Source: Escherichia coli
GTDB taxonomy: Bacteria > Pseudomonadota > Gammaproteobacteria > Enterobacterales > Enterobacteriaceae
Assembly: GCF_046105845.1 (NCBI RefSeq)
Contig: NZ_CP151004.1
DNA: 64,000 bases
Strand: one strand, 5' to 3'
Under the pieces are notes generated by a model. It made no database searches, had not been told where the DNA came from, and was given only the letters and a program-made list of their open reading frames with translations. A program made the translations under genes and the position numbers. Position 1 is the stretch's first letter. The number at the start of each line of letters is the position of its first letter. Positions 34,998 through 45,349 of the stretch are shown piece by piece.

Positions 34998-35000
34998 TGG

Positions 35001-35078
35001 TTAGAGCAGTAATTGCAGCAGCTGGGCGAGGGCAAACCTCACCGCTAATGCGAATGCCGTTTCGCAGTCGCCAGCAAA
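35001..35078 (-). pseudogene. ydeJ: 3'-terminal remnant of a CinA-C/PncC-like gene (ydeJ-like); remainder absent
   Basis: Minus-strand frame ends ...SNFAGDCETAFALAVRFALAQLLQLLL-stop, resembling the C-terminus of CinA-C/PncC-family proteins; upstream sequence is AT-rich with no CinA-like coding. The dcp-ydeI gap is only 364 bp, too short for a 172-aa gene. Confidence 0.4.
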
Positions 35079-35320
35079 ATTACTTTTTTTGTATACCCTT
35101 CCGTTATAATAATTTTCAAATTTATAAATCTGATTGTTCTGAAATATGTTTAAGACTCTTTAATCTTCTTCTTACTTTAGTGAGTAAAATTCTCTGAATA
35201 TTTGACAGCTAGTTGCCTGATTTTAAATGCCTTATAACAATTGGCAGTATTCTTATTTGTCAATTATAAAAATAGCAACCAGACTTAATAAGTCAAACCA
35301 AACGCAATTAAGGAGTCAGT

Positions 35321-35713
35321 ATGAAATTTCAGGCCATTGTATTAGCAAGTTTTCTTGTCATGCCTTATGCGTTGGCAGATGACCAGGGCGGATTAAAACA
35401 GGATGCAGCGCCACCGCCGCCTCATGCAATAGAAGATGGCTATCGCGGAACCGATGATGCAAAAAAAATGACCGTTGATTTCGCAAAAAAAATGCACGAT
35501 GGCGCTTCGGTTTCACTACGCGGTAATTTGATTTCTCACAAAGGAGAGGACCGTTACGTTTTTCGCGATAAGAGCGGTGAAATTAATGTTGTTATTCCTG
35601 CGGCAGTCTTTGATGGACGAGAAGTTCAGCCGGACCAGCTGATCAACATTAGCGGTAGTCTGGATAAGAAAAGCGCTCCGGCCGTCGTTCGGGTCACTCA
35701 TTTGCAGAAATAA
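35321..35713 (+). CDS. ydeI: BOF (YgiW/YdeI) family periplasmic OB-fold stress protein
   Basis: 130-aa ORF with signal peptide [19 protein letters not shown] and OB-fold domain; matches YdeI. Confidence 0.88.
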
Positions 35714-35967
35714 AAATAAATTAGCCTGATGGCCTGAACTACTGGGCCATTAGGTTATTGGGTTATGCTATTTATCATCCTTTTAATTGCGATAATGCAG
35801 GGTTAATTTACAGAATTAAACACTTTTTTATCTGCTGATTTTGTTTCAAATCACAATGTTATCTCAGAGATGACTCATAACTTAGGATTTCTATGAAAAT
35901 ATTGACGTAATTTTGCTTTTCTCTCGTTAGAATAGCGCGCACAAGGAACTGTGAAAAAGGAGTGGCA

Positions 35968-36858
35968 ATGATCAAGAAGACAACGGAAATTGATGCCATC
36001 TTGTTAAATCTCAATAAGGCTATCGATGCCCACTACCAGTGGCTGGTAAGTATGTTTCACAGCGTAGTCGCGAGAGATGCCAGTAAGCCAGAAATAACGG
36101 ATAACCATTCTTATGGACTGTGCCAGTTTGGTCGGTGGATTGATCATCTGGGGCCACTCGATAACGATGAATTACCTTACGTTCGGCTAATGGATTCTGC
36201 CCATCAACATATGCATAACTGTGGTCGGGAATTAATGCTGGCTATTGTTGAAAATCACTGGCAGGACGCGCATTTCGACGCCTTTCAGGAAGGGTTGCTT
36301 TCTTTTACTGCGGCATTAACCGATTACAAAATTTATTTGCTGACGATCCGTAGCAATATGGATGTTTTGACGGGATTGCCGGGTCGTCGGGTTCTTGATG
36401 AATCCTTTGATCATCAGTTACGCAACGCTGAGCCTCTGAATCTTTATTTAATGTTGTTGGATATTGACCGATTTAAATTGGTTAATGATACCTACGGGCA
36501 TTTAATCGGCGATGTAGTACTACGCACCCTGGCAACTTACTTAGCCAGTTGGACGCGTGATTACGAAACGGTTTATCGCTACGGGGGGGAAGAATTTATC
36601 ATTATTGTTAAAGCGGCTAATGATGAAGAAGCATGTCGTGCAGGTATCAGAATTTGCCAGTTAGTCGATAACCATGCCATCACACATTCTGAAGGGCATA
36701 TCAACATTACCGTGACTGCAGGTGTGAGTCGCGCATTTCCTGAAGAGCCTCTGGATGTGGTCATTGGAAGAGCGGACCGGGCAATGTATGAGGGTAAGCA
36801 AACCGGAAGAAATCGCTGTATGTTTATTGACGAACAAAATGTGATTAACCGAGTTTAA
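35968..36858 (+). CDS. dgcZ: Zinc-sensing diguanylate cyclase DgcZ
   Basis: Start trimmed to ATG 35968 (MIKKTTEIDAILLNLNKAIDAHYQW...), AAAGGAG RBS, 296 aa; N-terminal CZB zinc-binding domain, C-terminal GGDEF domain with RYGGEEF. Confidence 0.9.
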   Translation: MIKKTTEIDAILLNLNKAIDAHYQWLVSMFHSVVARDASKPEITDNHSYGLCQFGRWIDHLGPLDNDELPYVRLMDSAHQHMHNCGRELMLAIVENHWQDAHFDAFQEGLLSFTAALTDYKIYLLTIRSNMDVLTGLPGRRVLDESFDHQLRNAEPLNLYLMLLDIDRFKLVNDTYGHLIGDVVLRTLATYLASWTRDYETVYRYGGEEFIIIVKAANDEEACRAGIRICQLVDNHAITHSEGHINITVTAGVSRAFPEEPLDVVIGRADRAMYEGKQTGRNRCMFIDEQNVINRV

Positions 36859-36974
36859 GCTCCGTTTAACATTCATTGAGAAAACTGATGCTACTGTGTC
36901 AACGATCCGTTATCAGTGCAGGAAAATGCCTGTTAGCGTAAAAGCAAAACACAAATCTATCCATGCAAGCATTC

Positions 36975-37001
36975 ACCGCCGGTTTACTGGCGGTTTTTTT
37001 T
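36975..37001 (+). terminator. Intrinsic terminator downstream of dgcZ
   Basis: Stem ACCGCCGG / CTGGCGGT (loop TTTA) followed by TTTTTTT at 36995-37001. Confidence 0.7.
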
Positions 37002-37007
37002 CGCCGT

Positions 37008-37049
37008 CATAAAAATCAGGCCCCTTGTACACAACTGTAACAAGGGGCC
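37008..37049 (-). terminator. Intrinsic terminator downstream of mgtS
   Basis: Perfect 10-bp inverted repeat GGCCCCTTGT-(11 nt)-ACAAGGGGCC; on the minus strand it is followed by UGAUUUUUAUG. Confidence 0.65.
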
Positions 37050-37076
37050 GGTTAGGTGAGGGATTATCTCCGTTCA

Positions 37077-37172
37077 TTAGTCATCCCATTTGTGGCTGAA
37101 ATACGCGGCCAGAAAACCAGAAAATAAAATTATTCCCAGTACGGCCATAAAAACATTCATATTACCCAGCAT
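37077..37172 (-). CDS. mgtS: 31-aa small inner-membrane protein MgtS (YneM)
   Basis: Minus-strand ORF MLGNMNVFMAVLGIILFSGFLAAYFSHKWDD with GGAGG RBS 7 nt upstream; exact match to the MgtS sequence as I recall it. Below the ORF-track length cut-off. Confidence 0.85.
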   Translation of the reverse strand: MLGNMNVFMAVLGIILFSGFLAAYFSHKWDD

Positions 37173-37298
37173 TATTTGCCTCCGTTTATGGTGTGGTGTG
37201 TTTCCTCGCTTACCTTAATTTTCATCTCAATGAGAAAGATATTAGCAGAGGTAACCTAAACGAAGGCTGAATTAAATCTTTATTGTGTTCGACTTAAA

Positions 37299-38486
37299 TC
37301 AACAAAGCGCGGGCTGCCCCCACGGTCTTGCACGAATTCCTTTTAACATCAGCACCCACGCAGCAATAATCACCAACGCTAAGATGATAAACAGCGAGGA
37401 AGGCGGCAGGTTGGTTAGCACTACGCCACTCACTAATGGGTTAATCGCGGCACCAAGCCAGCCTAAAGACTGGGCGGAAAAATAGCTGGCTTTCATTCCT
37501 GGCGGCGCAATATGGTCAATCAACATATACTCGCCCGGCGCATAAATGATTTCACCGACAGTAAATACCGCAGCTGACATACCCCACAATAGCAGGCTGT
37601 TGCCGGAAAAAATAAAACCGACCAGACCGATGACGAAACAGAGGGTGCCTGCTGTCATCAGCGTGCGGATGTTAGCCGGGTTAAGTCGCCGGCCCACGGA
37701 ATATTGCAACGTAACTACCATGGCAGCATTCACTGGAAGAACAACCGCGACCACCTTTTCGGCAAAATCCCCATCAGCAATCACCATCACATATTGTGAA
37801 ATGCATGAAGCAAATGCGCCGCTAACAAAAGAAGCCAGAAAGCCAGAGCAGGTAAACCACAACAGTGCTTTATCTTGTAATAAAACTTTCGGCGACCAGG
37901 CACTGGCTGTTTCCGTGGCGATGATTTTCTCGCTGCGCTTTACCCAAATTTGAATGAAAAGCATGGGAAACGCGGAACAGATAGCTGCCAGCCAAAAGGG
38001 CAGATTGATGCTCTGCATCACCAACAGCGTGCCGAGCGGCGGACCGATGGTCCAGCCAATGTTGAGCATGGTGTAGTTGATTGAGAAGATTTTCGTTTTG
38101 CTGGTGGACGAAAGATTGTCGGCAAACCAGGCTTTCAACACAGTAGCAAAAACGGAATAGGCGCAGTTAATGAGGGCAAAAAAGAGCACCACCAGCGTCA
38201 CGTTATTCACTAAAGGAATGGCAATAAAACCGCAGGCGAAGGCGGTAATTGCCAGTAACATATAGCGTTTCTTGTCGAACTTATCCGCCAGGATACCAAA
38301 ACCGAGGCTAAAAACGACGCCAATAGTGAGCGCAATTGTCATCGCATAACCGATTAGATCGACACTCAGGCTGTACTGGCGACTCAAGTAAATGGTCATA
38401 AACGGCAGCGTAGCGCCGCGTCCGATGGTTAATAACAACGACGAGGCAAGAAGGGCGCTGGTAGAGCGTCGTAGGGATAAGTTCAT
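37299..38486 (-). CDS. ydeE: MFS-family exporter
   Basis: 395-aa 12-TM MFS protein; position between mgtS and eamA matches ydeE. Confidence 0.9.
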   Translation of the reverse strand: MNLSLRRSTSALLASSLLLTIGRGATLPFMTIYLSRQYSLSVDLIGYAMTIALTIGVVFSLGFGILADKFDKKRYMLLAITAFACGFIAIPLVNNVTLVVLFFALINCAYSVFATVLKAWFADNLSSTSKTKIFSINYTMLNIGWTIGPPLGTLLVMQSINLPFWLAAICSAFPMLFIQIWVKRSEKIIATETASAWSPKVLLQDKALLWFTCSGFLASFVSGAFASCISQYVMVIADGDFAEKVVAVVLPVNAAMVVTLQYSVGRRLNPANIRTLMTAGTLCFVIGLVGFIFSGNSLLLWGMSAAVFTVGEIIYAPGEYMLIDHIAPPGMKASYFSAQSLGWLGAAINPLVSGVVLTNLPPSSLFIILALVIIAAWVLMLKGIRARPWGQPALC

Positions 38487-39585: not shown

Positions 39586-39629
39586 ACGCACAGAATGTGA
39601 TGTCAGCACTCTGTGCGTCTGCTTTTATC
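39586..39629 (+). terminator. Intrinsic terminator after eamA
   Basis: 9-bp stem ACGCACAGA / TCTGTGCGT (15-nt loop) followed by CTGCTTTTATC; the stop codon of the downstream minus-strand regulator lies inside the U-tract. Confidence 0.6.
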
Positions 39630-40323
39630 GCGGGAAAAAGTACTTTACCTGGAACTCGAAAATATTGCTGTAAAGTAACGAATAATCCAGCGGAATAGAG
39701 TTACTATCCACAGCCTGGGTCTGAATTTTAAGTATGGGATCCCGTGGGCTGATCCGTAAAATACTGGCGATTTCTGGGGTAGGAAAAGTAGGGGAGAAAG
39801 TTTCAAAGGTGCCAATGATTTTGATCCCGCATTCGTTCTCAATATACGAAAATTTGGATTTTTGCATATGTGCTACGGTTAAATCAGGAAAACGTGCCAC
39901 TGACATCCACGTTTCTTCTAATTGTGCTGCATTATCCTCAATGAATCGCAGTCTCTTTATGTAATAAACCTGCTCACCAGTCACTAAATTCAGCTCAGTC
40001 GCAATAGGGGGAGAAGCATCCTGCACTTCAAATTTCATAATCTGACTTCCTGCCTCCTTGCCGCTTTTATGCGCAATTTCACTGAAGCTGTTCATGTGAT
40101 CAATGTGTGCAACAAAATTCTTTTTTTGAATGTATGTTCCTGAACCATGCTTTCTATGAATAACTCCTTCGCCTTCCAGCAAGGATAATGCCTTACGCAG
40201 GGTATTACGCGAAACATTATAACGAACAGCGAGTTCAGCTTCTGACGGCAACAAATCACCAACATGCCATGAATAGCCATTGATCTCGGATTTAAGTAAG
40301 CGGGCAATCTTTTGAAAAATCAC
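39625..40323 (-). CDS. bgcR: GntR/HutC-family transcriptional regulator (wHTH + UTRA effector domain), divergent from the PTS operon
   Basis: 232-aa ORF with GTG start; N-terminal GntR HTH (LPSEAELAVRYNVSRNTLRKALSLLEGEGVIHRKHGSGTYI) and HutC-type C-terminal domain. Symbol assigned by architecture match to the bgc locus, not sequence-verified. Confidence 0.8.
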   Translation of the reverse strand: MIFQKIARLLKSEINGYSWHVGDLLPSEAELAVRYNVSRNTLRKALSLLEGEGVIHRKHGSGTYIQKKNFVAHIDHMNSFSEIAHKSGKEAGSQIMKFEVQDASPPIATELNLVTGEQVYYIKRLRFIEDNAAQLEETWMSVARFPDLTVAHMQKSKFSYIENECGIKIIGTFETFSPTFPTPEIASILRISPRDPILKIQTQAVDSNSIPLDYSLLYSNIFEFQVKYFFPR

Positions 40324-40521: not shown

Positions 40522-40833
40522 ATGAAAAAGATATTGTTAGTTTGCGCTGCGGGCATGTCAACCAGTATGCTGGTTAAACGTATGATTGATCATGCTAACG
40601 CTATTTCACTTGAAGTTAATATTTCCGCATTGGCGATTGCAGAGGCTAAAGGGAAAATTAAAAATAACGAAGTTGACGTTGTTTTACTTGGCCCGCAAGT
40701 TCGCTTTCAGAAACCAGAGATTGAAGCTGTTGCACAGGGGAAAATGCCTGTAGCTGTTATCGAGATGAAAGACTATGGCACCATGAACGGACAGGCAGTT
40801 CTTGAATTTGCGATGAAACTACTGCAAGAGTAA
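40522..40833 (+). CDS. bgcE: PTS EIIB component, lactose/cellobiose family
   Basis: 103-aa ORF MKKILLVCAAGMSTSMLVKRM... with phosphorylatable Cys in LVCAAGMSTS; AAGGGA RBS. Symbol by architecture match to bgcEFIHA. Confidence 0.85.
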   Translation: MKKILLVCAAGMSTSMLVKRMIDHANAISLEVNISALAIAEAKGKIKNNEVDVVLLGPQVRFQKPEIEAVAQGKMPVAVIEMKDYGTMNGQAVLEFAMKLLQE

Positions 40834-40947
40834 GAATCTAATATTATTAAACTATTACCTGAACTAACTTTTCACACATCATAAAATGGATATGGCATAC
40901 ATGCTTTATTGGGATGTATAAATATCCAGAACAGCAGGTATAAAAAA

Positions 40948-41819
40948 ATGGGATTAATGGCCTCATTCGAACGTGGAATGGAACGTTTTCTTGTTCCAGT
41001 TGCTATCAAGTTAAACTCACAAAAACATGTTGCAGCGGTGAGAGATGGATTCGTTTTTACGTTTCCAATTATTATGGCAAGTTCATTAATTATATTAATT
41101 AATTTTGCCATATTATCGCCAGACGGTTTTATTGCCGGATTACTGCATCTGAATAGCATTTTCCCCAACCTTGAAAAAGCACAAGCTATTTTTACTCCGG
41201 TAATGAATGGTTCTGTAAATATCATGTCAATTATGATTGCTTTCCTGGTCGCCAGGAATATGGCGATTAGCTATGAGCAAGATGATCTTTTATGCGGATT
41301 AACGGCAATAGGAGCATTTTTTATTGTTGGGCCGCTCAACACGGCACTACCTGGGGCGCGCCATATCCGATTACCTGGACTTCTATTAATGATGCATTCG
41401 CCAACTGCGGCGGTTCAGGTATGACGTTGGGGTTATTGTTGGCTATTTTTATCGCTTCTAAGCGTGCGGAATACCGTGATCTGGCAAAAATGTCATTTAT
41501 CCCCGGTATTTTCAATATCAATGAACCGATAATGTTCGGCCTTCCTATTGTACTTAACCCCATCATGATGGTGCCGTTTATTCTGGTTCCCATTGTTAAC
41601 TGTGCCATTGGTTACTTCTTTGTTTCGATGGAAATTATTCCACCGGTTGCTTATGCCGTGCCCTGGACTACGCCCGGACCTTTAATTGCTTTCCTCGGAA
41701 CCGGGGGAAACTGGCTGGCGTTACTGGTGGGTTTTTTATGTTTAGGTGTGGCGACAATGATCTATTTACCTTTTGTTATTGCCGCCAACAAGGTCAATAA
41801 CATGACAACTAACGGATAA
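40948..41819 (+). pseudogene. bgcF: PTS EIIC component (lactose/cellobiose family) disrupted by an out-of-frame internal deletion
   Basis: ORF-track pieces 40909-41424 and 41292-41819 align to the N-terminal ~130 and C-terminal ~160 residues of ChbC-type EIIC in different frames. Total span ~290 codons versus ~440-450 for intact EIIC; frame switch near 41333-41337. Confidence 0.75.
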
Positions 41820-41846: not shown

Positions 41847-42158
41847 ATGTTTGCAGATGAAGAACTTGTTATGGAGTTACTGGTCAACGCAGGACAGGCT
41901 CGTTCTGATGCGATGGAAGCCATACGTTGTGCCGGGCAAAAAGACTGGCAGGGCGCAACTCAGCTAATGGCCAGTTCTGAATGCGCCTGTCTTCAGGCGC
42001 ATAAGATTCAGACCGCGTTAATTAGTCAGGATGAAGGCTGTGGCAAAATAGAAGTTAATTTAATTCTGGTTCATGCACAGGATCATTTGATGAATGCAAT
42101 ATTATGCCAGGATTTAGCCAGGGAAATTATTTCATTAAGAAAAGAGCTCCATGCCTGA
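41847..42158 (+). CDS. bgcI: PTS EIIA component, lactose/cellobiose family
   Basis: ChbA-like sequence (...EELVMELLVNAGQARSDAMEAIR...LILVHAQDHLMNA...); start placed at ATG 41847 because GGAAGGAG abuts the track start at 41841. Confidence 0.85.
   Translation: MFADEELVMELLVNAGQARSDAMEAIRCAGQKDWQGATQLMASSECACLQAHKIQTALISQDEGCGKIEVNLILVHAQDHLMNAILCQDLAREIISLRKELHA

Positions 42159-42210: not shown

Positions 42211-45349
<3,139 letters not shown>

What the first reader, a model, noticed from the sequence alone, without database searches (positions are those of the whole stretch)
41300..41425. EIIC permease gene carries an out-of-frame internal deletion (about 145 codons missing)
The two ORF-track pieces 40909-41424 and 41292-41819 overlap in different frames. 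The first matches EIIC N-terminal helices up to ...LTAIGAFFIVGP (about residue 130). The second resumes at ...AAQHGTTWGAPYPITWTSINDAFANCGGSGMTLGLLLAIFIASKRAEY..., the conserved C-terminal third. The whole span is ~290 codons versus ~440-450 for an intact ChbC/CelB-type EIIC, and the frames switch near 41333-41337. The transporter core is therefore lost while EIIB, EIIA and the hydrolase remain intact.
Basis: seen in the sequence. Interest (0 to 1): 0.65.

Follow-up and report, generated by a model that had tools for sequence, protein, structure and literature searches.

The report
Deletion-broken sugar transporter gene in E. coli
One E. coli lineage has lost 451 bases from the middle of the membrane-transporter gene of an accessory beta-glucoside sugar-uptake operon, which leaves an ordinary, recently formed dead gene.

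Summary
The window is E. coli chromosome. It carries the accessory bgc beta-glucoside operon between eamA and marB: a GntR regulator, then PTS EIIB, EIIC, EIIA, a sugar porin and a 6-phospho-beta-glucosidase.

The EIIC gene lacks exactly 451 bp, which is codons 128-277 plus 1 nt. The junction is at window 41328|41329. This leaves 127 native codons, 31 out-of-frame codons and a stop at 41422-41424. Codons 279-440 remain as an untranslated remnant in another frame.

A contig whose flanks are 100% identical (Logan ERR13115083) carries the intact 440-codon gene. About 2,400-2,500 complete E. coli genomes also have the intact configuration, and none of 5,426 has this junction. An independent assembly of run SRR28309099 has the same junction.

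The lost segment holds three hydrophobic segments and the conserved sugar-coordinating histidine (H255, equivalent to ChbC H250). The permease is therefore dead. The breakpoints share only 1 nt of microhomology and no repeats flank them.

The porin gene has a 2-nt frameshift (TTTT to TT) that removes its last 44 residues. That frameshift is older than the EIIC deletion.

Other E. coli assemblies carry different, independent EIIC lesions. This is ordinary, lineage-private gene decay, and interest is low.

The parts
39625..40323 (-). GntR/HutC-type regulator of the operon (bgcR), intact at 232 aa
   Evidence: One search gives the ORF and the GntR family hits. One search shows the orthologue annotated in IAI39. 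One search finds 3 nt and 2 aa differences from IAI39 and no stops.
40522..40833 (+). PTS EIIB (lactose/cellobiose family), intact at 103 aa
40948..41424 (+). 5' fragment of the EIIC gene: 127 native codons (40948-41328), then 31 out-of-frame codons and a TGA stop at 41422-41424
   Evidence: One search gives the translation. One search matches it to EIIC profile positions 1-110 only. One search shows nt 1-381 identical to the intact allele in L013.
41328..41329 (+). Deletion junction. 451 bp are missing between these two bases. The T at 41328 could come from either side (1-nt microhomology).
   Evidence: Searches give the junction sequences. Searches give the BLAST endpoints. One search finds no in-register repeat.
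41331..41819 (+). 3' remnant of the EIIC gene: native codons 279-440 plus the stop, now in a different frame from the start codon
   Evidence: One search shows the frame starting at 41331 gives AAQHGTTWG...NMTTNG*. One search matches it to profile positions 278-420. One search shows nt 832-1323 identical to the intact allele.
41847..42158 (+). PTS EIIA (lactose/cellobiose family), intact at 103 aa
42214..43806 (+). Sugar porin (LamB family, bgcH) with a frameshift. A TTTT run is shortened to TT at about 43750. The product is 530 aa instead of 557, native to residue 513.
   Evidence: One search finds the 2-nt gap. One search gives the context and the C-termini. One search gives the LamB family match.
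43751..43885 (+). Displaced native 3' end of the porin gene (ends ...AGIQAEVWW*), no longer in frame with its start
   Evidence: One search lists ORF 43742-43885. One search shows the IAI39 C-terminus is identical.
43910..45349 (+). 6-phospho-beta-glucosidase (GH1, bgcA), intact at 479 aa
   Evidence: One search gives NF007154 at 1032 bits against a cut-off of 624. Searches support it.

Best explanation
The finding is a genuine, evolutionarily very recent 451-bp deletion inside the EIIC permease gene of the E. coli bgc beta-glucoside PTS operon. That gene is bgcF by gene order. The deletion removes codons 128-277 and one further base. Translation from the native start therefore runs 127 native residues, 31 nonsense residues and a stop. 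The last 162 codons are left untranslated in another frame.

The lost part holds three hydrophobic membrane segments and the conserved GIHG histidine that coordinates the sugar in the ChbC structure. No functional permease can be made. By inference, PTS uptake and phosphorylation through this system is abolished, although EIIB, EIIA, the regulator and the phospho-beta-glucosidase are still intact.

The breakpoints share only 1 nt and are not flanked by repeats. I infer that the event was microhomology-independent illegitimate recombination or a replication error, not slippage between repeats.

The deletion arose in a lineage whose porin gene in the same operon was already frameshifted. Different lesions of the same EIIC gene occur in other E. 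coli assemblies. The simplest reading is stepwise decay of a dispensable accessory operon.
For: The locus is the bgc operon. Gene order and family matches are, and the position between eamA and marB matches annotated IAI39.

The deletion maps as follows. Against IAI39, the left block ends at window 41328 and the right block starts at 41328, 451 bp apart in the reference. Against L013 (Logan ERR13115083), the flanks are 2664 and 6479 nt at 100% identity and the EIIC gene is an intact 1323 nt.

In the population, the intact left-junction 50-mer is found in 2392 of 5426 complete genomes. The deletion-junction 50-mer is found in none. All listed top hits to a 300-nt junction query are split into 2 pieces spanning 751 bp.

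The same junction is present in a second assembly, Logan SRR28309099, which is 100% identical to the window over 12,477 nt.

On function, the intact allele scores 336.5 bits against TIGR00410 (cut-off 236), while the fragments score 68 and 169 bits. The alignment to bcChbC (3QNQ, E 3.9e-57) places BgcF H255 on H250 and E343 on E334. PMC11393339 states that H250 and E334 are the conserved sugar-coordinating residues of IIC-Chb. Three hydrophobic segments, at about residues 138-169, 180-216 and 231-257, lie in the deleted part.

The order of events follows from the porin frameshift. It is shared by L013 and L014, which have intact EIIC, and by the window and L002.

Independent lesions of the gene elsewhere are listed.
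Against: No reads could be inspected. SRR28309099 may be the read set of the same isolate, so the two assemblies may not be biologically independent. Loss of transport is inferred from sequence, not measured. Other beta-glucoside systems outside the window (bgl, asc, chb) could mask any phenotype. The statement that the operon is dispensable rests only on its absence from about half of complete E. coli genomes and on recurrent lesions. Some of those lesions come from raw-read assemblies and could be sequencing errors.
Confidence: 0.93

Rival explanations
1. The deletion is an assembly or consensus artefact. The isolate really has an intact EIIC gene and 451 bp were dropped during assembly.
For: Reads could not be checked. 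The exact junction product is on record on only two contigs.
Against: Two different assemblies, the 4.74-Mb NCBI chromosome and the Logan assembly of SRR28309099, carry the identical junction. No repeats flank or sit in register with the breakpoints that could collapse an assembly. The deleted segment is unique coding sequence with ordinary composition (44% GC).
Confidence: 0.04
2. This is a naturally short or split EIIC: the two pieces are a functional two-gene arrangement, or they are rejoined by programmed frameshifting.
For: Both pieces are still open reading frames, and gene callers call both of them.
Against: Homologues are single 440-codon genes, including the locally isogenic L013. The arrangement is confined to one lineage. 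150 residues are absent altogether, including three membrane segments and the sugar-coordinating His, so rejoining the frames would not restore them. Neither fragment reaches the family cut-off.
Confidence: 0.01
3. The polarity is reversed: the 451 bp are an insertion, such as a mobile element, in the other genomes, and the window shows the ancestral state.
For: None beyond the formal symmetry of any insertion or deletion.
Against: The 451 bp encode residues that align column by column with the solved ChbC transporter and with the family profile. Without them the reading frame is broken. They are present in about 2,400 genomes across E. coli.
Confidence: 0.005

Closest known systems
The bgc beta-glucoside operon of E. 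coli (Neelakanta, Sankar and Schnetz 2009, Appl Environ Microbiol 75:2284; cited in PMC3585215 and PMC4488073)
   Same: The gene content and order are the same: a divergent GntR-type regulator, then EIIB, EIIC, EIIA, porin and phospho-beta-glucosidase. The chromosomal site between eamA and marB is the same. Identity to intact copies in complete E. coli genomes is 98-99%.
   Different: Here the EIIC gene has a 451-bp frameshifting deletion and the porin gene a 2-nt frameshift. As a transport system the operon is therefore non-functional. I could not read the primary paper. The one secondary source I could read assigns the letters F and I to EIIA and EIIC the other way round, so I use 'bgcF = EIIC' by gene order only.
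bcChbC, the N,N'-diacetylchitobiose EIIC of Bacillus cereus (PDB 3QNQ)
   Same: The intact allele aligns over residues 9-428 with E 3.9e-57. The conserved His (GIHG) and Glu (NINE) align with H250 and E334.
   Different: The window copy lacks the equivalent of ChbC residues of about 113-269, including H250. This is homology to the family only. The substrates differ: the bgc system is reported to take beta-glucosides.
Cryptic and eroding beta-glucoside systems of E. coli (bgl, asc, chb)
   Same: These are also accessory sugar-utilisation operons that are silent, variably present or mutationally inactivated among strains. PMC4488073 lists bgc with them as cryptic systems.
   Different: Crypticity of bgl, asc and chb is mainly regulatory and reversible. 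The lesion here is a structural deletion that cannot revert.

Membership tests
PTS lactose/cellobiose-family EIIC (NCBIfam TIGR00410; Pfam PF02378) | A full-length match at or above the curated cut-off of 236 bits | tested here: not met
   The window fragments score 68.2 bits (profile 1-110) and 168.6 bits (profile 278-420). The intact allele in L013 scores 336.5 bits over profile 1-420. The window holds remnants of a family member, not a functional member.
PTS lactose/cellobiose-family EIIC (NCBIfam TIGR00410; Pfam PF02378) | The conserved sugar-coordinating His (ChbC H250) and Glu (ChbC E334) sit in one polypeptide | tested here: not met
   H255 (GIHG) lies in the deleted codons 128-277. E343 (NINE) is retained but in the out-of-frame 3' remnant. 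The role of these residues is taken from PMC11393339.
E. coli bgc beta-glucoside operon | Gene set and order: GntR regulator, then EIIB, EIIC, EIIA, porin and 6-phospho-beta-glucosidase | tested here: met
   All six genes are present in that order, and two of them (EIIC and porin) are disrupted.
E. coli bgc beta-glucoside operon | Chromosomal position between eamA (ydeD) and marB, with high nucleotide identity to annotated copies | tested here: met
   One search gives the IAI39 annotation. Searches give 97.9-98.4% identity. One search finds 2514 genomes with a match.
E. coli bgc beta-glucoside operon | Confers growth on cellobiose, arbutin and salicin, as reported at low temperature | not testable with these tools
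   This phenotype is known only from the literature as summarised in PMC3585215. From sequence I predict it is lost here.
Pseudogene by internal deletion | Orthologues in close relatives are intact and full-length | tested here: met
   L013 and L014 have flanks at 100% and 99.98% identity and an intact gene. The intact junction is in 2392 complete genomes.
Pseudogene by internal deletion | The reading frame is disrupted and a premature stop follows | tested here: met
   451 bp is 150 codons plus 1 nt. A stop follows 31 codons after the junction.
Pseudogene by internal deletion | The lesion is present in the organism and not only in one assembly | tested here: inconclusive
   The same junction is in a second assembly, Logan SRR28309099. 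That run may be from the same isolate, and no reads were inspected.

The most novel reading that the evidence does not exclude
The EIIC gene of the bgc operon may be a recurrent target of selected loss of function, rather than of neutral decay. Beyond this deletion, a biased sample of about ten contigs showed six other lesion types: three different 1-nt indels, one +T in a T-run, and two different nonsense codons. Loss could be favoured, for instance, because uptake of plant beta-glucosides yields toxic phospho-aglycones. Alternatively, the retained 127-residue scaffold fragment might interfere with other EIIC dimers. My evidence does not exclude either idea and does not support either one.
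Probability: 0.08. Interest if true: 0.35.

Novelty: already known. Interest (0 to 1): 0.1.

Why it matters
It matters little beyond correct annotation. The locus should be annotated as a pseudogene (EIIC) plus a second pseudogene (porin). Metabolic reconstructions for this strain should not credit it with bgc-dependent beta-glucoside uptake.

One modest point of wider use remains. Near-isogenic contigs exist with and without the deletion, both carrying the older porin frameshift. This gives a dated, stepwise example of how an accessory sugar operon erodes in E. coli, and a natural strain pair for testing what the bgc system contributes.

Tried and rejected
I looked for microhomology or repeats that could explain the deletion. 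The nearest direct repeat, CGCCATATCAGAT / CGCCATATCCGAT, is spaced 477 bp apart and is not at the breakpoints. It would give a different, in-frame deletion, so I rejected it. Only a single shared T sits at the junction.

I searched for the junction in 5,426 complete E. coli genomes and found none. I checked that this was not an effect of low-complexity masking by using the matching intact 50-mer, which hit 2392 genomes.

I tried to read the primary bgc paper (PMC2675225), the ChbC structure paper (PMC3201810) and the MalT paper (PMC4899283). None is held. I relied on secondary sources instead.

Searches for the gene names bgcE, bgcF, bgcH and bgcR returned almost only unrelated uses of 'BGC'.

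I considered the +A at window 40942, just upstream of the EIIC start, as a further lesion. I rejected it because it is shared by the intact-gene contig L013.

I did not scan the metagenome or GTDB collections for the junction. The exact-protein look-up across NCBI, Logan and ENA had already shown the allele to be confined to two contigs.

Full report
**What is in the sequence**

Between 40909 and 41819 on the + strand, two ORFs overlap in different frames: 40909-41424 and 41292-41819. Both are pieces of a lactose/cellobiose-family PTS EIIC.
- The first matches NCBIfam TIGR00410 profile positions 1-110 of 424 (68 bits).
- The second matches positions 278-420 (169 bits).
- Nothing matches positions 111-277, and neither piece reaches the curated cut-off of 236 bits.

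The neighbours are as follows:
- a divergent GntR/HutC regulator (39625-40323, minus strand)
- EIIB (40522-40833)
- EIIA (41847-42158)
- a LamB-family porin (42214-43806)
- a GH1 6-phospho-beta-glucosidase (43910-45349)

**Identity of the locus**

The window is E. coli chromosome. It is collinear with complete genomes at 98.7-99.1% identity throughout.

The six genes sit between eamA and marB, exactly as in the annotated genome of IAI39. There the EIIC gene is a single 1323-nt CDS of 440 codons.

This is the accessory bgc beta-glucoside operon of Neelakanta et al. 2009. I could not read that paper. [quoted passage not shown] PMC4488073 lists it among E. coli's four beta-glucoside systems. The region is present in 2514 of 5426 complete E. 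coli genomes.

**Mapping the lesion**

Against IAI39, the alignment breaks into two blocks that meet at window 41328 and lie 451 bp apart in the reference.

A better comparator came from an exact-protein look-up. Contig L013 (Logan assembly of ERR13115083) is 100% identical to the window over 2664 nt to the left and 6479 nt to the right of the junction, yet it carries the intact 440-codon gene. L014 (SRR12605517) is the same, with one mismatch.

The deleted segment is L013 2665-3115, that is codons 128-277 plus the first base of W278. From ATG 40948 the window encodes 127 native residues (ending ...GAFFIV). It then reads 31 out-of-frame residues (GPLNTALPGARHIRLPGLLLMMHSPTAAVQV) and a stop at 41422-41424. 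Native codons 279-440 follow from 41331 in another frame.

The breakpoints share one base (T). No direct or inverted repeat lies in register with them. The event therefore looks like microhomology-independent illegitimate recombination. That mechanism is an inference.

**Is the deletion real, and how widespread is it?**

A 50-mer centred on the deletion junction finds no match in 5,426 complete E. coli genomes. The corresponding intact 50-mer shares the same T-rich half, so it controls for low-complexity masking. It finds 2392 genomes.

The exact 158-residue junction product is on record on two contigs only. One is a 4.74-Mb NCBI chromosome, presumably the source of the window. The other is an 80.6-kb contig assembled by Logan from run SRR28309099, which is 100% identical to the window over 12,477 nt.

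Two assemblers therefore agree, and there is nothing repetitive at the site to collapse. I cannot tell whether the two data sets come from one isolate, and I could not inspect reads.

**Consequence for the protein**

The intact allele aligns to the solved ChbC transporter (3QNQ) over residues 9-428 with E 3.9e-57.

BgcF H255, in the motif GIHG, falls on ChbC H250. E343, in NINE, falls on E334. PMC11393339 states that these two residues are the conserved sugar-coordinating positions of IIC-Chb. It also states that in this superfamily TM1-5 form the scaffold and the C-terminal part forms the transport domain.

The deletion removes the His and three strongly hydrophobic segments at about residues 138-169, 180-216 and 231-257. 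What remains cannot be a permease. Rejoining the frames would not help, because 150 residues are simply absent.

Loss of uptake is inferred, not measured. Polarity on the downstream genes is possible but untested.

**The rest of the operon**

The regulator, EIIB, EIIA and the phospho-beta-glucosidase have no stops. They differ from IAI39 by only 1-9 residues.

A TTTT run is TT at about window 43750. This shifts the frame at residue 514 of 557 and replaces the last 44 residues, including the terminal ...AEVWW, with 17 unrelated ones. The displaced native end is still visible as ORF 43742-43885.

This frameshift is shared by L013 and L014, which have an intact EIIC gene. By parsimony it therefore predates the EIIC deletion.

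**Context in other strains**

Contigs were retrieved because they carry the same 132-residue C-terminal gene call. They show other, independent lesions in the same gene:
- a 1-nt deletion at nt 809 (L003, an NCBI assembly)
- a 1-nt insertion at nt 917 (L004, L009, L010)
- a 1-nt deletion at nt 875 (L005)
- a nonsense codon at 294 (L006)
- an extra T in a T-run at nt 799 (L007)
- a nonsense codon at 278 (L011)

The sample is biased by how it was retrieved, and some lesions may be read errors. Even so, the picture is of an accessory gene that breaks repeatedly.

**Verdict**

The finding is correct and well observed, but it is ordinary. It is a lineage-private, very recent pseudogene in a known, variably present sugar operon that already carried another inactivating mutation.

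Alternative readings are an assembly artefact, a natural split gene and an insertion in the other genomes. I give them 0.04, 0.01 and below 0.01 respectively. The only mildly novel possibility left open is that the repeated losses are selected rather than neutral.

Noticed in passing
window 43745-43806 (frameshift at about 43750) and 43742-43885: The LamB-family porin gene of the same operon has a 2-nt deletion (TTTT to TT). This shifts the frame at residue 514 of 557 and removes the C-terminal strands and the terminal ...EVWW. The allele is on record on only 5 contigs and predates the EIIC deletion.
   Followed up: yes
L003-L011 (EIIC gene of other E. coli assemblies): There are six other independent lesion types in the same EIIC gene: 1-nt indels at nt 799, 809, 875 and 917, and nonsense codons at 278 and 294. 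L004 and L009 also have fragmented EIIA and porin gene calls. This suggests recurrent decay of the whole operon. Some cases may be read errors in raw-read assemblies.
   Followed up: partly
window 40942: There is an extra A in the A-run 6 nt upstream of the EIIC start codon, relative to IAI39. It lies between the likely ribosome-binding site and the ATG. It is shared by the intact-gene contig L013, so it is not specific to the deletion lineage. Its effect on translation is unknown.
   Followed up: partly
window 36870-37083 (+): A full-length match to Rfam STnc560, an Hfq-binding sRNA (282 bits), lies between the GGDEF gene and ydeE, beside the small mgtS-like ORF. It is the only Rfam hit in the window and looks like ordinary core-genome content.
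   Followed up: no
window about 35000-37312, compared with L001 1-913: Homology to IAI39 stops at window 37312, the 3' end of ydeE. The window continues with mgtS, the sRNA and a GGDEF gene, whereas IAI39 has a rhodanese-domain gene and ftrA there. This is a strain-variable segment next to the bgc locus.
   Followed up: no
whole window: No complete RefSeq E. coli genome among 5,426 is more than about 99.1% identical to any large part of the window. The lineage-marker porin allele is on only 5 contigs in a collection of about 15 billion proteins. The source therefore appears to belong to a sparsely sampled E. coli lineage with a 4.74-Mb chromosome.
   Followed up: partly
literature (PMC3585215, discussion): This secondary source gives BgcF as EIIA and BgcI as EIIC. 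The primary paper could not be read to settle it.
   Followed up: partly
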